Positions 3,132 through 8,522 of a stretch of DNA of 64,000 nucleotides are shown piece after piece; positions within the stretch are counted from its first letter, which is position 1; the number at the start of each line of letters is the position of its first letter. Both the position numbers and the translations under genes were made by a program. Origin of the DNA: Escherichia phage ES12. Where the stretch lies: sequence record MN508614.1; one strand, written 5' to 3'. The notes under the pieces were generated by a model that saw only the letters and a list, made by a program, of their open reading frames with translations, was not told where the DNA came from and did not search any database.

Positions 3132-3150
<19 letters not shown>

Positions 3151-3620
3151 TCAGTGATAAAGTTATTTAAATTTTGAGTATATTTCTTTTCATCAAAAAT
3201 CTTTTGTTGTCTGCGTAGCCGCCATGGCATTTCAATGAACGTATACCATATCCCAGATAATATTGATGCAGTAAAAATATTAACAAGTATGGTTAAAAGA
3301 ATCCAATCTCCTATTCTGTCCATTGGATTTTTTATAAAAAAGTAAAATACGAATAATGTCACAGGAAGACTAATAATATACCACAGAATCATAATTTTAT
3401 CTGTGAACCAATCAGCGTTCGTTAACTTAGCGCGACCATTATGAATACACACGAATTTATCATCTGTTATAATAGATGGCTTAGCTGCTTGATATCCCAT
3501 TCTAAACTCCCTAATCAACAAATTTTTCATATCTTCGGAACAACCATTCCAGTCAACTCTATCAACTGAAATGCCATCATCCCCATCATCTAAATCATAC
3601 CAGCGAGTTTTTAAAATCAT
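3132..3620 (-). CDS. Small membrane protein (two predicted TM helices), translationally coupled
   Basis: 162-aa ORF, hydrophobic segments ILWYIISLPVTLFVFYFFI and ILLTILVNIFTASILSGIWYTF; stop overlaps nudE start. Confidence 0.6.
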
Positions 3621-3991
3621 TTAATTTTCCTACAATCACTCACAAACTCTTCCATTGATTCTTTTTCAATATAAGACATGTAGCTATTATATTCCTTTAA
3701 TTGTATTTTGTAATCTTTTTTTCTTTGCCAATTTATTTTAAAATTATCATAATGAAAATATAACATGGTACCAAAGAATGAAAATAATGAAATCGCTATA
3801 GTATAATGAAGTTCACTCCAAACTTCTATTATATCTATTATACCGCTGACGTTACTACGGATGTTTAAAATAAGACAGTCAATTAACAATCCAAAAAGAC
3901 TACCCGCAAGAGCTGCAGCCAACGCTACAGCAAAAATTAAAAATGACTCATGAAGAGAATATTTGACTTTATTTAGTTTTGGCTTTTGCAT
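3617..3991 (-). CDS. Small membrane protein (two predicted TM helices), translationally coupled
   Basis: 124-aa ORF, ATG at 3991; stop TGA overlaps next start as ATGA; hydrophobic segments. Confidence 0.6.
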   Translation of the reverse strand: MQKPKLNKVKYSLHESFLIFAVALAAALAGSLFGLLIDCLILNIRSNVSGIIDIIEVWSELHYTIAISLFSFFGTMLYFHYDNFKINWQRKKDYKIQLKEYNSYMSYIEKESMEEFVSDCRKIK

Positions 3992-4365
3992 CGTGATTCC
4001 TTAACAAATTTCATAATTTCATCAAATTCATGCGCAGCAAGTTTAAGCTGATGTTCCTTTTTAATCTTTTTACACTGAGCTTTCCAATCACGTACACGTT
4101 TACGATAGTGTCTTCCTTGATACCAATATCCTATCCAATTTATAGGTACTAATAAAAGCGGAACTACCAACGGAAGAATTAGTGTTGCTCCAAATATTGC
4201 ACCAGATTCAATATCAGTCATAACGTCTATAACCATTCCAGCAATCACCAGAATCACAAATGATACAACTACCACAGGACCTATTAACACATCAGTAGAA
4301 ATTATCTGACGCTTTAATTCATACTTCAACGGTTTACTTGGAAGGTATAGTGATGGTTTTGACAT
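3973..4365 (-). CDS. Small membrane protein; start moved to first ATG (ORF-track start at 4386 is TTG)
   Basis: Hand check: codon at 4386 is TTG, first ATG at 4365; hydrophobic core ILVIAGMVIDV...ILPLVVPLLLVPI. Confidence 0.55.
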   Translation of the reverse strand: MSKPSLYLPSKPLKYELKRQIISTDVLIGPVVVVSFVILVIAGMVIDVMTDIESGAIFGATLILPLVVPLLLVPINWIGYWYQGRHYRKRVRDWKAQCKKIKKEHQLKLAAHEFDEIMKFVKESRCKSQN

Positions 4366-4942
4366 ATTCTCTACATTCCTTAACAAATTTTTCTAATAAT
4401 AAATCGCTTTCAAAATTGGGATTTTCTACGAATTTATCAAAAAGATCATCGACAATAGTTAAGATATTCTTTTTACTAAGAATACGTTTATTTTCATATT
4501 TTGTTTCAGAGTCAACTATAAGAGTAAAGAAATATTTCTTGCCCTGAAATTTTACAGTAGTATCAATATAGAATAAATTTGACTTTTGTAAATTACGTTT
4601 AAACCATGCATCACTTAAACTATAAACGCCAAGATAATCATAATCGTCGTTTAAATAACAGACCGTCCATTCAGGAGAAACAAAATCAGTAAATTCAACG
4701 TCAAAATCGCATGTTAATAAATGAATTGATTCAATACTGTTAATAAGTATTCCAGGACGTATTAAAGACTTTTTACCTCTAGAAAATCTTCCAGAAAGAC
4801 TTTCAACAGTTTCATATGAAGAACCCCAATAATAATTACGTCCTTCTGCCATACGTTTAAGAGCATTTAATAATTGGTCTGGAACATCAACCTGTCTTTG
4901 GAACTCTTCAAACATTGAATTGAAATCACTTTGCATTTTCAT
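4334..4942 (-). CDS. Hypothetical protein
   Basis: 202-aa ORF with ATG; likely real start at Met3 (4936) with AGGAA RBS. Confidence 0.6.
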   Translation of the reverse strand: MKMQSDFNSMFEEFQRQVDVPDQLLNALKRMAEGRNYYWGSSYETVESLSGRFSRGKKSLIRPGILINSIESIHLLTCDFDVEFTDFVSPEWTVCYLNDDYDYLGVYSLSDAWFKRNLQKSNLFYIDTTVKFQGKKYFFTLIVDSETKYENKRILSKKNILTIVDDLFDKFVENPNFESDLLLEKFVKECREYVKTITIPSK

Positions 4943-4962
4943 TCCTACTTACTCCAAGTAAT

Positions 4963-4978
4963 AGGGGCCGAAGCCCCT
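4963..4978 (-). terminator. GC hairpin with UUCG loop on minus strand, after the 4984..5577 gene
   Basis: aggggccgaagcccct perfect inverted repeat directly after the stop codon. Confidence 0.5.
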
Positions 4979-4983
4979 TATCA

Positions 4984-5577
4984 TTATTTCAGAGAATTAA
5001 TATATTCCTGAACATCGGCAGAGGTAGTTTCAACCCCAGAAATATTACCATTAAAGGTTTCAACTCGAGCAAGAGTATCTTCAATATCAACCTTAGTCAG
5101 TGCTGCAATTTCAACTACATCATCAGCAGTACTAATTCCAAGGGCATTCGCGGCGCGAGTTTCACGGATATATTCCAATTTAACTGCAAGTTCTTGGCGA
5201 GCATCATCTAACTCAACTACTTTCTTGGCGATTTCAATTCGCATTTCAGCATAACCATCAGCTTTAGTAGTCAACTGCTCAGCTGTTCGACGATATAGTA
5301 AACCAAGTTTAGCATGCATTGTTACATCTTGACCTTCCGAAAGGAGCTTGCGAATTTCACGCTCTTTTGATTCGGCCTGCTTATTCTTTTCGACAATAAG
5401 TTCACGAATACGCTTTTCTTCATTAATAGATTTAACAGAAGCAGTTTTTAGATCTTTAATCTTATCAAGTAGTTTTGCTGCCGCAGCAGTATACTGTTCT
5501 TCAACAGATAGATTTTTAGCCATAGCAGAACCAAGTTTAGTGCGAATAAACTCAACAATTTTCTTCAGTGTGTTCAT
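4984..5577 (-). CDS. Coiled-coil protein, possibly PspA/IM30-like
   Basis: 197-aa ORF, AGGAAA RBS, own early promoter; heptad-rich sequence with DTLARV segment. Confidence 0.7.
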
Positions 5578-5621
5578 AACATTTCCTTTAGTTAATTAAG
5601 GGTTTTATAATCCGTGGGAGT

Positions 5622-5651
5622 ATTATACTCTACTCCCAAGAGTTTGTAAAC
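5622..5651 (-). promoter_or_regulatory. T4-type early promoter (-35 GTTTAC, 18-nt spacer, -10 TATAAT) within a stem-loop (PeSL-like)
   Basis: Minus strand reads GTTTAC-aaactcttgggagtagag-TATAAT; inverted repeat gggagta/tactccc brackets the -10. Confidence 0.55.
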
Positions 5652-6316: not shown

Positions 6317-6347
6317 GTTGTTTTCTATATCAGTAGTTGATAGTTGT

Positions 6348-6377
6348 ATAGTACCATAGAAGAACAGTCTTGTAAAC
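6348..6377 (-). promoter_or_regulatory. T4-type early promoter
   Basis: Minus strand GTTTAC-18 nt-TACTAT, preceded by TTTCACAAAACT upstream element shared with other copies. Confidence 0.55.
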
Positions 6378-6514
6378 AGTTTTGTGAAAAAATTTTTAAA
6401 AAGTTTTGGGGAATTCTAGGGCAGGGAGTGGAAATCAAAGGATAGGATAATATATTATAAAGGATAGAAACTAAATGATGCCTAGAGAGGCCCGGAAAGG
6501 CCTAGATACCAAAA

Positions 6515-6538
6515 AGCCCCGACCAAAAGGTTGGGGCT
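6515..6538 (-). terminator. Rho-independent terminator (minus strand)
   Basis: agccccaacc-uuuu-ggucggggcu hairpin followed by UUUUUGG on the minus strand, just after the stop at 6546. Confidence 0.6.
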
Positions 6539-6545
6539 AAGAATG

Positions 6546-7019
6546 TTATTTGATTTGTTTAGCAGACCAAATGCGGTCTTTAATAATTTTTTGGATGTCT
6601 TCAACATACTCTAGGTCATGAGCATGTGGATTATCTTTGAAACTATAAGCACGGGCTAACTTTTGGCCTTCGGTTTTGATTACTAAAAGCTCTTTAAGGA
6701 TAGCTTCATATTTAGCGATAATTCCTTTAACGATATTTTTTTCTTGTGCCGCTTTAGGATCTGCTTTAGGAGCAGGTTTACCAGAAGCCTTTGCAAAAGC
6801 AGCGCCAGTAGCAACTAAACTTTTCCAGGCCATACTAACTGCATTTCCCGTAAATCCTTCCGCTTTCATGTCGCGTGCAAACTGGAATCGTGATTCATCA
6901 GAAGCATCTTTATAGGAATATTTACCCGCGGCAATGGCAGCTTTTGCAACAGCTTGAATTTCGGTGCTAGATGCTTCATTTAACACCGCTTCATTTAAAA
7001 ATTGAGTATATGATTTCAT
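6546..7019 (-). CDS. Internal-protein-like protein with CTS-like N-terminus MKSYTQFLNEA; Ala/Lys-rich
   Basis: Internal ATG at 7019 with AGGAAA RBS; the ORF-track N-terminal extension to 7196 crosses a terminator and structured RNA region and is rejected. Confidence 0.65.
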   Translation of the reverse strand: MKSYTQFLNEAVLNEASSTEIQAVAKAAIAAGKYSYKDASDESRFQFARDMKAEGFTGNAVSMAWKSLVATGAAFAKASGKPAPKADPKAAQEKNIVKGIIAKYEAILKELLVIKTEGQKLARAYSFKDNPHAHDLEYVEDIQKIIKDRIWSAKQIK

Positions 7020-7057
7020 CTTATTTCCTGTTTTAATTTGTAGATTTAATATACTAA

Positions 7058-7065
7058 TATTTATA
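7058..7065 (-). promoter_or_regulatory. T4-type late promoter box TATAAATA upstream of the 6546..7019 gene
   Basis: Reverse complement of plus tatttata, about 39 nt upstream of the ATG. Confidence 0.45.
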
Positions 7066-7071
7066 CCAAAA

Positions 7072-7095
7072 AGCCCCAACCTTTCGGTCGGGGCT
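7072..7095 (-). terminator. Rho-independent terminator (minus strand); inverted copy of the 6515..6538 hairpin
   Basis: agccccgacc-gaaa-gguuggggcu followed by UUUUUGG on minus strand. Confidence 0.6.
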
Positions 7096-7099
7096 AAGC

Positions 7100-7401
7100 C
7101 TTGCGGCAACCTTGTCGGGGTTCCACCTGCTAAGGCAAGTGTTTGTACGAAACGCCGGGATTCGAACCCGGTTATTAAGTAGTTGACGCTACTCAATATT
7201 TTTAAAAGGCCATATCTCGACCATATCCGAACGTTCCGTCAAAAACGCTACTCGGCTTACGGCAAAGATATTTCCTCGAATCGATAATTCGGTGCGCCGT
7301 TTCAGCTGTGATAGTAAAGAACCAGAACATAGTAAAACTGTGGGAGGAACTATACTCCAGGGAACATCAGTCCGACGACTTACCGGTAGCGACCCGGTTT
7401 C
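7100..7401 (-). ncRNA. Candidate stable structured RNA(s) downstream of the tRNA cluster, with a tRNA-like T-arm
   Basis: No credible ORF; T-arm-like ccgggttcgaatcccgg plus a 7-bp acceptor-like pairing; sits between tRNA cluster and a terminator. Confidence 0.3.
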
Positions 7402-7752
7402 TTAATATTCTTTTAAAGCATCAATCTGTTCACGGCGTTTACGCCATAAATCAATTGCTTCATACGCAGATTCAGCATTTCGAATTGGACGGCATTTATA
7501 TAAAGACTTGTGATTTTGATATTGCGTAGATAACGGAATTTTATCTAAAAGGTCTTTATGTTCAAAGTATTCATAACCATCTAAGCCAAATGAACGATTT
7601 TTAAGAAATTGCCAATGACCGTATTCGTTTTCGACATAAACATAATCTGCGTGCTGATAAAGCAAATTAATTACACGTTCAGAAATAACAGTGTCATTAT
7701 GATTAAAATAGAATGTTAAATCATGAACTACTAAATAAACATTACCTTTCAT
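7402..7752 (-). CDS. Hypothetical protein
   Basis: 116-aa ORF, GAGGAA RBS, start 17 nt downstream of tRNA-Arg 3' end. Confidence 0.55.
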   Translation of the reverse strand: MKGNVYLVVHDLTFYFNHNDTVISERVINLLYQHADYVYVENEYGHWQFLKNRSFGLDGYEYFEHKDLLDKIPLSTQYQNHKSLYKCRPIRNAESAYEAIDLWRKRREQIDALKEY

Positions 7753-7768
7753 ATTTTCCTCACTTAAT

Positions 7769-7844
7769 TGGTCGAGGCAGTAGGGATCGAACCTACGACC
7801 TAGGACTTAGAAGGTCCTTGCTCTTCCTTCTGAGCTATGCCTCG
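7769..7844 (-). tRNA. tRNA-Arg (anticodon UCU)
   Basis: Hand-folded cloverleaf: acceptor CGAGGCA/UGCCUCG, anticodon loop CUUCUAA, T-loop GGTTCGATCC, CCA encoded. Confidence 0.85.
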
Positions 7845-7848
7845 GATT

Positions 7849-7923
7849 TGGCGGACGTGATAGGATTCGAACCTATAACCAATCGCTTAACAGGCGATCG
7901 CTCTGCCATTGAGCTACACATCC
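7849..7923 (-). tRNA. tRNA-Asn (anticodon GUU)
   Basis: Acceptor GGATGTG/CACGTCC, anticodon stem ATCGC/GCGAT, loop CTGTTAA, T-loop TTCGAAT, discriminator G, CCA encoded. Confidence 0.8.
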
Positions 7924-7927
7924 AAAT

Positions 7928-8014
7928 TGGTGGGGAGTGATGGAGTCGAACCACCCGAGTCGCAATGACAATGGATTTACAGTCCACACCGCTACCTCTA
8001 CGGGATAACTCCCC
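7928..8014 (-). tRNA. tRNA-Tyr (anticodon GUA), long variable arm
   Basis: Acceptor GGGGAGT/ACTCCCC, anticodon loop CTGTAAA, 15-nt variable arm, T-loop TTCGACT, CCA encoded. Confidence 0.8.
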
Positions 8015-8023
8015 AAATTAATT

Positions 8024-8098
8024 TGGTGGCCCTGGGTGGAATTGAACCACCATCTGGCGATTATGAGTCGCTTGCTTGAACCTTCCAGCTACAGGGCC
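8024..8098 (-). tRNA. tRNA with CAU anticodon (Ile2 or Met; Ile expected by analogy with T4)
   Basis: Acceptor GGCCCTG/CAGGGCC, anticodon loop CTCATAA, T-loop TTCAATT, CCA encoded. Confidence 0.75.
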
Positions 8099-8099
8099 T

Positions 8100-8175
8100 T
8101 GGTGCTGATTGACGGAATCGAACCGCCGACCTTCTCATTACAAGTGAGTTGCTCTACCTACTGAGCTAAATCAGC
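8100..8175 (-). tRNA. tRNA-Thr (anticodon UGU)
   Basis: Acceptor GCTGATT/AATCAGC, D-arm GCTCAGTAGGTAGAGC, anticodon loop CTTGTAA, T-loop TTCGATT, CCA encoded. Confidence 0.85.
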
Positions 8176-8180
8176 AAAAC

Positions 8181-8270
8181 TGGCGGAGGCGATAGGATTT
8201 GAACCTATGAGTCGCCGGAGCGACTGCCGGTTTTCAAGACCGGTGCATTAAACCACTCTGCCACGCCTCC
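8181..8270 (-). tRNA. tRNA-Ser (anticodon UGA), type II
   Basis: Acceptor GGAGGCG/CGCCTCC, anticodon stem CCGGT/ACCGG, loop CTTGAAA, long variable arm, CCA encoded. Confidence 0.85.
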
Positions 8271-8272
8271 AG

Positions 8273-8346
8273 TCTCCATACAAGGATTTGAACCTTGGAC
8301 CTCCTGATCCCAAATCAGGCGCTCTACCAAACTGAGCTACACGGAG
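8273..8346 (-). tRNA. tRNA-Pro (anticodon UGG), CCA not encoded
   Basis: Acceptor CTCCGTG/TATGGAG (two G-U pairs), anticodon loop TTTGGGA, T-loop TTCAAAT; 3' end followed by CTG not CCA. Confidence 0.8.
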
Positions 8347-8356
8347 TAAATTAAAT

Positions 8357-8430
<74 letters not shown>

Positions 8431-8435
8431 AAATT

Positions 8436-8522
8436 TGGTGCGAGAAGTGGGACTCGAACCCACAAGGAAATCATTCCGCAGCATTTTAAGTGCTGTGCCT
8501 TTACCAATTTGACCATTCTCGC
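8436..8522 (-). tRNA. tRNA-Leu (anticodon UAA), type II
   Basis: Acceptor GCGAGAA/TTCTCGC, anticodon stem CAGCA/TGCTG, loop CTTAAAA, long variable arm, T-loop TTCGAGT, CCA encoded. Confidence 0.85.

What the first reader, a model, noticed from the sequence alone, without database searches (positions are those of the whole stretch)
4984..5577. Early coiled-coil protein with possible PspA/IM30-like character
The 197-aa product is largely heptad-rich helix with charged faces and carries a DTLARV segment, which I recall resembles a stretch of E. coli PspA. It has its own early promoter and a terminator hairpin. A membrane-stress or membrane-remodelling role during infection is possible.
Basis: inference. 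Interest (0 to 1): 0.45.

Follow-up and report, generated by a model that had tools for sequence, protein, structure and literature searches.

The report
T4 e.6: a phage-encoded PspA/Vipp1-like protein
The gene is phage T4's early gene e.6, and it does encode a shortened, very diverged relative of the bacterial membrane-repair proteins PspA and Vipp1 (ESCRT-III superfamily); two papers had already noted this in passing, and nobody has tested what it does.

Summary
The ORF at 4984-5577 (- strand, 197 aa) is real. It is gene e.6 of a Tequatrovirus and is 100% identical in protein to T4 e.6. The early promoter (TTTACA-17-TATAAT), the Shine-Dalgarno site and a C(UUCG)G hairpin are all present. The hairpin has no U-tract on the coding strand, so calling it a terminator is unproven.

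- T4 e.6 alone hits nothing in Pfam or the PDB.
- A 59-member family profile hits Vipp1/PspA chains as the top 8 PDB matches (E 8.8e-5 to 2.4e-3, colinear from residue 1).
- Diverged family members from Ackermannviridae pass Pfam's PspA_IM30 threshold (E 8.9e-10).
- hhalign gives 88-90% probability.
- Two AlphaFold models give Vipp1 as the top 8-9 Foldseek hits.
- None of 10,000 shuffled Vipp1 sequences reached the real score.

DTLARV literally matches PspA's DTLARM, but out of register (chance p=0.11). In register it aligns with PspA's alpha4 segment EAMARF.

The homology had already been noted computationally (PMC7862958, PMC9409062). I found no experiment.

The likely function is an early-made polymer that binds and stabilises the inner membrane and preserves the proton-motive force. 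This is inferred, not shown.

The parts
4984..5577 (-). e.6 coding sequence: 197 aa plus stop, 22.0 kDa, pI 6.1. It belongs to PHROG 1203.
5512..5568 (-). Residues 4-22: predicted N-terminal amphipathic helix, the counterpart of alpha0 in PspA/Vipp1. Hydrophobic positions 4, 7, 10/11 and 15 and R12 align with Vipp1.
   Evidence: Helix in both models but pLDDT about 40. Hydrophobic moment 0.45, against PspA 0.42 and Vipp1 0.57; shuffle p=0.06. Aligned to alpha0 by HMMER and hhalign.
5143..5505 (-). Residues 25-145: long antiparallel helical hairpin (helix 25-80, tip 81-85, helix 86-145). It is the counterpart of the alpha1-alpha2/3 hairpin motif (aa 24-142) that marks PspA, Vipp1 and ESCRT-III.
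   Evidence: pLDDT 85-97. Foldseek 6zvs_A: 3.1 A rmsd over 122-123 aligned columns, TM 0.69. Profile alignments. Hairpin definition from PMC8281802.
4987..5142 (-). Residues 146-197: short C-terminal part. It holds the near-invariant G147 (possible 'elbow' hinge), helices 151-160, 166-170 and 186-196, and the conserved end motif DVxEYLxSLK. It is a possible reduced alpha4/alpha5.
   Evidence: Conservation: G147 98%, Y192 95%, L196 88%. The end-to-end hhalign places it on PspA alpha4-alpha5, but on its own this part is not significant (P=0.09).
5062..5079 (-). DTLARV, residues 167-172. In register it aligns with PspA alpha4 'EAMARF' (162-167), not with PspA 'DTLARM' (112-117).
5622..5650 (-). 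Sigma-70-type early promoter: -35 TTTACA (5650-5645), 17-nt spacer, -10 TATAAT (5627-5622).
   Evidence: 11 of 12 matches. -35 conserved in T4. e.6 RNA is classed as early.
5582..5588 (-). Shine-Dalgarno sequence AAGGAAA, ending 5 nt before the ATG.
   Evidence: Read directly from the sequence.
4963..4978 (-). C(UUCG)G tetraloop hairpin between e.6 and e.5. It may stabilise the RNA or act as a weak terminator.
   Evidence: No U-tract on the - strand.

Best explanation
Shown: the gene is T4 e.6. It is transcribed from its own early promoter and the protein is detected in infected cells. It is a diverged, compact (197 aa against 222-267 aa) member of the PspA/IM30(Vipp1) branch of the ESCRT-III superfamily. 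It keeps the N-terminal helix and the aa 25-145 helical hairpin in register with PspA/Vipp1. The family is confined to phages, namely T4-like Straboviridae and some Ackermannviridae.

Inferred: soon after infection e.6 binds the host inner membrane through its amphipathic N-terminal helix and the hairpin. It polymerises by side-by-side hairpin packing, with the conserved C-terminal helix possibly acting as the alpha5-type contact. It thereby stabilises or reseals the membrane and keeps the proton-motive force up. The damage it counters could come from phage penetration or superinfection, from holin build-up during lysis inhibition, or from host abortive-infection effectors that depolarise the membrane.

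In short, it would be an effector-only PspA, with no regulatory Psp partners.
For: Identity and expression.

Homology:
- Family profile against the PDB: top 8 hits are Vipp1/PspA, E 8.8e-5 to 2.4e-3, colinear.
- Pfam PspA_IM30 passes its gathering score in P0188 (E 8.9e-10) and P0186 (E 1.4e-8). It is by far the best-scoring family over 59 members.
- Those two proteins are firmly in the e.6 family: 88-92 bits to a T4-clade-only profile, and blastp of e.6 against FEC14 gp042 gives E 1.5e-12.
- hhalign: 90% to Vipp1, 82% to PspA+Vipp1, and 88% over 199 columns to a 9-sequence PspA profile.
- Empirical null: 0 of 5000 plain shuffles and 0 of 5000 heptad-phase shuffles reach 28.0 bits (maxima 14.6 and 9.9). 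The reversed sequence scores -1.1.
- Foldseek top 8 and top 9 hits are all Vipp1, followed by archaeal CdvB2/CdvB.
- Published HHpred result of 99.9% to 4WHE_A for the homologue Metamorpho gp163, and the PspA assignment of phrog_1203.

Function (indirect):
- The N-terminal helix is as amphipathic as that of PspA.
- Conservation peaks at the start of alpha2 after the hairpin tip (87-99), the end of alpha3 (127-141), G147 and the C-terminal helix. That pattern fits the hinge and alpha5-hairpin contacts described for the superfamily.
- No PspB, PspC or PspF-like genes are nearby.
Against: - T4 e.6 on its own has no Pfam, NCBIfam or PDB hit.
- E. coli PspA itself scores only 3 bits against the family profile. 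hhalign to a shallow E. coli-type PspA profile gave 31%, and to the single PspA sequence 9.6%.
- The C-terminal 50 residues are about 25 residues shorter than alpha4-alpha5 of PspA, and their alignment is not significant on its own.
- The N-terminal helix has pLDDT about 40, and its amphipathicity is only marginal against shuffles (p=0.06).
- No conserved neighbouring gene points to a pathway.
- No experiment on membrane binding, oligomerisation or phenotype was found.
Confidence: 0.6

Rival explanations
1. Dedicated counter-defence. e.6 exists specifically to neutralise abortive-infection systems that kill by depolarising or permeabilising the inner membrane (Rex-like, AbiZ-like, transmembrane effectors of CBASS, Pycsar or retrons). 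It does so by patching the membrane long enough for the phage to finish. This is a narrower version of the best explanation.
For: Gendre et al. proposed this for the Kuttervirus member of phrog_1203, which they found in only 4 of 15 Kuttervirus genomes; that patchiness is typical of accessory anti-defence genes. The gene is expressed early. It moves between unrelated gene neighbourhoods as a single-gene module.
Against: Within T4-like phages the gene is widespread rather than patchy: 1099 phage records. No defence system is known to be sensitive to it. No experiment was found.
Confidence: 0.25
2. Regulatory mimic or dominant-negative. e.6 binds host PspF, PspB/C or host PspA. It either silences the host Psp response or poisons host PspA polymers.
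For: In E. coli, PspA also acts as an anti-activator of PspF through its N-terminal half (established knowledge). That half is the part conserved in e.6. A truncated Klebsiella pspA allele acts as a gain-of-function envelope modifier.
Against: e.6 is closer to Vipp1-type sequences than to the host's own PspA (28 against 3 bits), which is not what a mimic of the host protein would look like. T4 shuts off host transcription anyway (established knowledge), so repressing the psp operon would bring little benefit.
Confidence: 0.1
3. Generic coiled-coil protein unrelated to PspA, for example a scaffold, a spanin-like protein or, as many GenBank records say, a 'host specificity protein'.
Against: The profile, Pfam, hhalign, Foldseek and shuffle controls all single out PspA/Vipp1. 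Early expression does not fit a virion or lysis protein. The 'host specificity' label comes with no evidence.
Confidence: 0.05

Closest known systems
Cyanobacterial/plastid Vipp1 (IM30), e.g. Synechocystis sll0617 and Nostoc Vipp1 (PDB 7O3W, 6ZVR, 8QFV)
   Same: It is the best sequence and fold match: E 8.8e-5, hhalign 90%, Foldseek ranks 1-9. The N-terminal helix, the linker and the aa 24-145 hairpin are in the same register, and the hairpin tip sits at the same position.
   Different: e.6 is 197 aa, against 214-277 aa for the listed Vipp1 chains. It lacks the KAEDP linker proline and has a much shorter alpha4/alpha5 region. From established knowledge, not tested here: Vipp1 also carries a C-terminal helix alpha6 that e.6 is too short to hold, and it works on thylakoid membranes. 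e.6 is encoded by a virulent phage, and its assembly and membrane activity are untested.
E. coli PspA (P0AFM6, PDB 4WHE), effector and regulator of the phage-shock response
   Same: Same family (Pfam PF04012) and same helix order. The end-to-end hhalign covers e.6 1-197 against PspA 1-218. e.6 [11 protein letters not shown] aligns with PspA LDEAMARFESF. HHpred gave 99.9% for a close e.6 homologue.
   Different: Direct similarity is very low: 3 bits to the family HMM. There are no pspB, pspC or pspF partners in the phage. e.6 is driven by a sigma-70 early promoter, whereas pspA uses a sigma-54/PspF promoter (established knowledge). e.6 is 25 residues shorter.
Bacillus subtilis LiaH (PspA homologue recruited by the small membrane protein LiaI)
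   Same: The Ackermannviridae member P0188 has a weak colinear hit to the LiaH model (E 0.005). In several phages a small membrane-protein gene lies next to the e.6-like gene, which recalls the LiaI-LiaH arrangement.
   Different: The neighbouring membrane proteins are not homologous to LiaI or to each other. In T4 the immediate neighbour, e.5, has no membrane segment.
ESCRT-III proper (archaeal CdvB/CdvB2, Snf7, CHMP1B)
   Different: No sequence-profile match to Snf7-type families. No Vps4-type ATPase or MIM motif is evident. Membership holds at superfamily level only.

Membership tests
PspA/IM30 family (Pfam PF04012) | The protein itself scores above the family's curated profile threshold. 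| tested here: not met
   T4 e.6 alone gives no PF04012 hit even at E<=10, no NCBIfam PspA or LiaH hit and no PDB hit by phmmer.
PspA/IM30 family (Pfam PF04012) | Homology can be shown through the protein's own family, by profile or by transitive links. | tested here: met
   e.6-family members P0188 and P0186 pass the gathering score (39.0 and 35.1 against 33.9 bits, profile positions 2-143 of 220). The family HMM hits Vipp1/PspA chains at E 8.8e-5 to 2.4e-3. hhalign gives 88-90%. Shuffle controls are clean. Published HHpred: 99.9%.
PspA/IM30 family (Pfam PF04012) | alpha1-alpha2/3 helical hairpin spanning about aa 24-142, the hallmark motif (PMC8281802). | tested here: met
   Helices 25-80 and 86-145 at pLDDT 85-97 in two models. 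They superpose on the Vipp1 hairpin 6zvs_A at 3.1 A over about 122 columns. Definition.
PspA/IM30 family (Pfam PF04012) | N-terminal amphipathic helix alpha0 that binds membrane. | tested here: inconclusive
   A helix at 4-22 is predicted and aligned to alpha0. Its hydrophobic moment of 0.45 is comparable to PspA's 0.42. But pLDDT is about 40 and shuffle p=0.06. Membrane binding itself cannot be tested here.
PspA/IM30 family (Pfam PF04012) | alpha4 and alpha5 with elbow and wrist hinges, and an alpha5 domain-swap contact to a neighbour's hairpin tip. | tested here: inconclusive
   Short helices 151-160, 166-170 and 186-196. G147 and the C-terminal helix are highly conserved. The end-to-end hhalign covers them, but the C-terminal part alone gives P=0.09. 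The region is about 25 residues shorter than in PspA.
PspA/IM30 family (Pfam PF04012) | Self-assembly into rings, rods or carpets, and membrane stabilisation or maintenance of the proton-motive force. | not testable with these tools
   This needs purified protein (EM, liposome assays) and infection physiology. No published experiment was found.
Proteobacterial Psp system (pspF-pspABCDE) | PspA encoded together with PspB/PspC sensors and the PspF activator, and PspA binding to PspF. | tested here: not met
   The neighbours e.2-e.5, e.7 and e.8 have no Pfam match and fall in PHROGs of unknown function or labelled 'membrane protein'. The context is not conserved across phages. PspF binding was not tested.
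ESCRT-III / Snf7 family | Sequence-profile membership in Snf7/CdvB-type families. | tested here: not met
BAR-domain proteins | Sequence or profile similarity to BAR families in addition to the shape of the helical bundle. | tested here: not met
'Host specificity protein' (label in many GenBank records) | A virion or tail-fibre component that determines host range. | not tested
   The label comes without evidence. Early RNA and middle protein timing and the PspA homology argue against it.

The most novel reading that the evidence does not exclude
T4-like and Vi1-like phages carry their own minimal ESCRT-III-type membrane-repair polymer. Made within minutes of infection, it would either seal the inner membrane after DNA injection or superinfection, or override host suicide systems that depolarise the membrane. 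It would be the first viral effector of the bacterial ESCRT-III superfamily, and a new class of phage counter-defence that acts on the membrane itself rather than on a defence protein.
Probability: 0.3. Interest if true: 0.7.

Novelty: new member of a known kind. Interest (0 to 1): 0.5.

Why it matters
T4 is the reference virulent phage, yet e.6 is still listed as 'conserved hypothetical' in T4, as 'unknown function' in PHROG 1203, and wrongly as 'host specificity protein' in many genomes. Homologues are found in about 1,100 sequenced phage genomes.

The e.6 family appears to be essentially the only PspA/IM30 lineage carried by phages: canonical PspA and Vipp1 queries hit just two unverified metagenomic fragments among 50,697 phage records.

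A 2025 review of bacterial and archaeal ESCRT-III-like systems and a 2024 survey of Psp evolution say nothing about phage-encoded members in the passages I searched.

If e.6 stabilises the host membrane, that would give a direct handle on an old question: how T-even phages keep the host energised after puncturing its envelope and during lysis inhibition. It would also offer a very small, self-contained ESCRT-III-superfamily protein for structural work. The homology itself is not new, because two papers noted it computationally.

Tried and rejected
1. Single-sequence searches of e.6 against Pfam, NCBIfam and the PDB found nothing. Only family profiles work.
2. A T4-clade-only profile (31 sequences) gave just E 1-2.4 to Vipp1. 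Members down to 18% identity had to be added, taken from the 1.84-billion-protein search.
3. Attempts to get a diverse PspA/Vipp1 alignment failed. A PspA query, a mixed PspA+Vipp1 profile query and a genome-contig scan all returned only Enterobacterales PspA at 78% identity or more. hhalign against that shallow profile gave only 31%. I partly got round this with the Vipp1 fragment printed and two metagenomic PspA genes.
5. The afdb50 library was not available.
6. Aligning the C-terminal region alone to PspA alpha4-alpha5 was not significant.
7. I looked for a conserved partner gene across T4, RB43, FEC14 and three metagenomic contexts and found none. There is only a loose tendency to sit near unrelated small membrane-protein genes.
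8. Literature searches for experiments on e.6 or on phage PspA found none. This covered the CRISPRi-ART T4 screen text and supplement, UniProt and RefSeq identifiers, and ESCRT-III reviews.
9. I considered and rejected the literal DTLARV/DTLARM match as evidence of homology.

Full report
WHAT IS THERE

The window is a Tequatrovirus genome segment. It is 100% identical over 3 kb to Escherichia phage ES26 and 96-97% identical to AR1 and other T4-like phages. The ORF at 4984..5577 on the - strand (ATG start, 197 aa) is gene e.6. It lies in the run e - nudE - e.2 - e.3 - e.4 - e.5 - e.6 - e.7 - e.8 - tRNA cluster. Its protein is 100% identical to T4 e.6 (GenBank L13089, called 'msp3' there). T4 and AR1 annotate it as a conserved hypothetical protein. 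PHROG 1203, which it matches at E 8e-88, is of 'unknown function'. Many GenBank records call it 'host specificity protein' without giving any evidence.

CHECKING THE OBSERVATION

- Promoter. TTTACA-17-TATAAT (11 of 12 matches) lies at 5650..5622 on the - strand. AAGGAAA lies 5 nt before the ATG. The -35 element is conserved in T4.
- Expression. Published T4 time-course omics class e.6 as early RNA and middle protein, so it is expressed and the protein is detected (PMC9697503 supplement).
- Hairpin. Five nucleotides after the stop codon lies AGGGGC-UUCG-GCCCCU, a C(UUCG)G tetraloop hairpin. On the coding strand it is followed by AUUACUUGG and then the e.5 ribosome-binding site, not by a U-tract. 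The scan scored it as terminator-like only on the opposite strand. So it is a real hairpin, but 'terminator' is unproven. An RNA-stabilising role is just as likely.
- Helical content. Two AlphaFold models predict 82% helix.
- DTLARV. It sits at residues 167-172. However, that match is out of register with every alignment obtained later, 11% of shuffled e.6 sequences share a 5-mer with PspA, and DTLARV is not conserved in the family.

IS IT PspA/IM30-LIKE?

On its own, e.6 matches nothing. It gives no PspA_IM30 hit in Pfam even at E<=10, no PDB sequence and no relevant NCBIfam model.

The family is small and confined to phages. An exhaustive profile search of 1.84 billion representative proteins found only 45 at E<=0.001. 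The full-length ones are 195-209 aa and the rest are shorter fragments. tblastn finds the gene in 1099 phage records. These are T4-like phages of Escherichia, Klebsiella, Shigella, Aeromonas, Enterobacter, Yersinia, Citrobacter and others. A diverged clade sits in Ackermannviridae such as FEC14 and SJ3.

A profile of close relatives (31 sequences, A1) already placed three Vipp1 sequences among its six weak PDB hits, colinear from the N-terminus (E 1-2.4). After adding members down to 18% identity (59 sequences, A2), the evidence became specific:

1. The eight best PDB matches out of 177,635 sequences are all Vipp1/PspA-family chains. E-values run from 8.8e-5 to 2.4e-3, with e.6 1-146 aligned to Vipp1 1-147.
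2. Ackermannviridae members P0188 and P0186 pass Pfam's own gathering score for PspA_IM30 (39.0 and 35.1 bits against 33.9; E 8.9e-10 and 1.4e-8). P0189 scores E 1e-4. Five of 59 members hit this family, and its best E-value is orders of magnitude better than that of any other family.
3. These proteins are safely e.6 homologues. They score 88-92 bits to the T4-clade-only profile, and blastp of e.6 against FEC14 gp042 gives 24% identity over 194 aa at E 1.5e-12.
4. hhalign of A2 gives 90% (P 1.6e-6, 134 columns) to a single Vipp1 sequence. It gives 82% to a PspA+Vipp1 pair. It gives 88% (P 2.8e-6) over 199 columns, end to end, to a nine-sequence PspA profile.
5. As a control for coiled-coil composition, the A2 HMM scores real Vipp1 at 28.0 bits. 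The maximum over 5000 plain shuffles is 14.6 bits and over 5000 heptad-phase-preserving shuffles 9.9 bits. The reversed sequence scores -1.1.
6. Archaeal ESCRT-III (CdvB2, CdvB) follows. The hairpin superposes on Vipp1 6zvs_A at 3.1 A over about 122 columns.

There are weak points.

- The host's own PspA is barely recognised: 3 bits to the HMM, 31% in hhalign against a shallow E. coli-type profile, and 9.6% against the single PspA sequence.
- The last 50 residues are not significant on their own (P 0.09).

Taken together, homology to the PspA/IM30 family is well supported. e.6 is closer to the family consensus or to Vipp1-type sequences than to enterobacterial PspA, so it is not a recent capture from the host.

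ANATOMY

| e.6 residues | Prediction | Counterpart in PspA/Vipp1 |
|---|---|---|
| 4-22 | helix | alpha0 |
| 25-80 and 86-145 | long hairpin, pLDDT 85-97 | aa 24-142 hairpin, the hallmark of PspA, Vipp1 and ESCRT-III |
| 146-197 | short helices 151-160, 166-170, 186-196 | possibly a reduced alpha4/alpha5 |

- alpha0. The hydrophobic positions 4, 7, 10/11 and 15 and R12 are shared with Vipp1. The hydrophobic moment is 0.45, against 0.42 for PspA and 0.57 for Vipp1. The helix has low model confidence, and the moment is only marginal against shuffles (p 0.06).
- Linker. The KAEDP linker of PspA/Vipp1 is replaced by KNLSVE.
- Hairpin. The family definition comes from PMC8281802. The tip [13 protein letters not shown] aligns with Vipp1 LTNGEENLAREAL.
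- Conservation. Within the family it peaks at 87-99 (start of the second hairpin helix), 127-141, G147 (98%, a candidate 'elbow' hinge) and the C-terminal helix DVxEYLxSLK (Y192 95%).
- In-register fate of DTLARV. e.6 [11 protein letters not shown] aligns with PspA alpha4 LDEAMARFESF.
- C-terminal part overall. It is about 25 residues shorter than in PspA. Whether it still makes the alpha5-to-hairpin-tip contact that defines polymer formation in this superfamily could not be tested.

CONTEXT

No psp partner genes are present. e.2-e.5, e.7 and e.8 have no Pfam match and fall in PHROGs of unknown function or labelled 'membrane protein'. The neighbourhood is not conserved between T4, RB43, the Kuttervirus FEC14 and three metagenomic contigs. 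Only the e.6-like gene itself is shared. So it behaves as a self-contained single-gene module.

Small membrane-protein genes often lie nearby: e.2-e.4 in T4, FEC14 gp041, L089 5690-6223 and L087 5928-6296. These proteins are unrelated to each other, and such genes are common in phage early regions, so I treat this only as a lead.

HOW IT MOST LIKELY WORKS

Shown: identity, early expression, and PspA/Vipp1 homology of the N-terminal 145 residues.

Inferred from what the family does (membrane binding through alpha0 and the hairpin, polymerisation, membrane stabilisation and repair; PMC8281802 and established knowledge of PspA): e.6 is an effector-only PspA. It coats or patches the host inner membrane early in infection and preserves the proton-motive force.

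Plausible sources of the damage it counters:
- the phage's own penetration and superinfection;
- holin accumulation during lysis inhibition;
- host abortive-infection effectors that depolarise the membrane.

The last idea was proposed in print for the Kuttervirus homologue (PMC9409062).

A regulatory or dominant-negative role towards the host Psp system is less likely. e.6 resembles the host protein least of all, and T4 shuts off host transcription (established knowledge). The generic-coiled-coil and 'host specificity' readings are effectively excluded.

WHAT IS ALREADY KNOWN

- A 2021 genome announcement states that Metamorpho gp163, an e.6 homologue, aligns with E. coli PspA 4WHE_A at 99.9% in HHpred (PMC7862958).
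- A 2022 paper assigns phrog_1203 in a Kuttervirus to PspA and suggests an anti-abortive-infection role.
- I found no experimental study.
- A 2024 survey of Psp evolution and a 2025 review of bacterial and archaeal ESCRT-III-like systems do not mention phage-encoded members in the passages searched.
- Canonical PspA or Vipp1 genes are essentially absent from 50,697 phage records, with only two unverified metagenomic fragments. The e.6 family therefore looks like the only PspA lineage carried by phages.

VERDICT

The membrane function is a reasonable but untested inference. e.6 is a diverged, shortened member of a known family. The relationship is not new to the literature, but it is missing from reference annotation and has not been explored experimentally. 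Interest is moderate (0.5).

Noticed in passing
window 3132-4942 (- strand): e.2 3132-3620, e.3 3617-3991, e.4 3973-4386, e.5 4334-4942: Four consecutive genes end in a shared C-terminal motif, (E/K)F(I/V)x(E/D)(C/S)R(K)(L/I)K: [35 protein letters not shown] and EKFVKECREYVK. In e.2 and e.3 the codons TGY AGG AAA (A)TT AAA TGA also carry the Shine-Dalgarno site and the ATGA start/stop overlap of the next gene. The peptide motif may therefore be the imprint of a translational-coupling signal, or a sign that the genes are paralogues. e.2, e.3 and e.4 have membrane-spanning-like segments.
   Followed up: partly
window 5615-5638 (- strand): An 8-bp stem-loop, UGGGAGUA-N8-UACUCCCA, straddles the -10 element of the e.6 promoter just after the e.7 stop codon (5652). 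For the region, dG is -14.1 kcal/mol and z is -2.5. It is present in AR1 but absent from T4, whose intergenic region differs. It could end or stabilise e.7 read-through RNA, or modulate the promoter.
   Followed up: partly
window 4963-4978 (- strand): The e.6-e.5 intercistronic hairpin has the extra-stable C(UUCG)G tetraloop, which is known from memory to be frequent between T4 cistrons. The next stem (4944-4961) covers the e.5 ribosome-binding site, so it could affect e.5 translation.
   Followed up: partly
L083 5647-6225 (FEC14 gp041); L089 4510-4937 and 5690-6223; L087 5928-6296: In unrelated phages the e.6-like gene is flanked by small membrane-protein genes that share no sequence similarity with each other or with T4 e.2-e.4. 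They could be LiaI- or PspB-like anchors, or the adjacency could be coincidence.
   Followed up: partly
GenBank records of e.6 homologues: Dozens of phage genomes annotate this protein as 'host specificity protein' (traced in one record to ACLAME 1259). This conflicts with its early expression and its PspA homology, and looks like a propagated mis-annotation.
   Followed up: partly
window 6320-8522: Between e.8 and the tRNA cluster (9 tRNA genes, 7769-8522, - strand) this phage has ORFs 6546-7196 and 7402-7752, like AR1 and RB32. T4 has rnaC, rnaD, tRNA-Arg and segB at that position. It is a variable island next to the conserved e.x genes.
   Followed up: no
L085 301-978 (MT835668) and L086 301-984 (MT839532): The only canonical PspA-like genes found in the phage collection (28-32% identity to E. 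coli PspA, 225 and 227 aa) are on two 'UNVERIFIED Bacteriophage sp.' scaffolds from human faeces. They may be bacterial contamination rather than phage genes.
   Followed up: no
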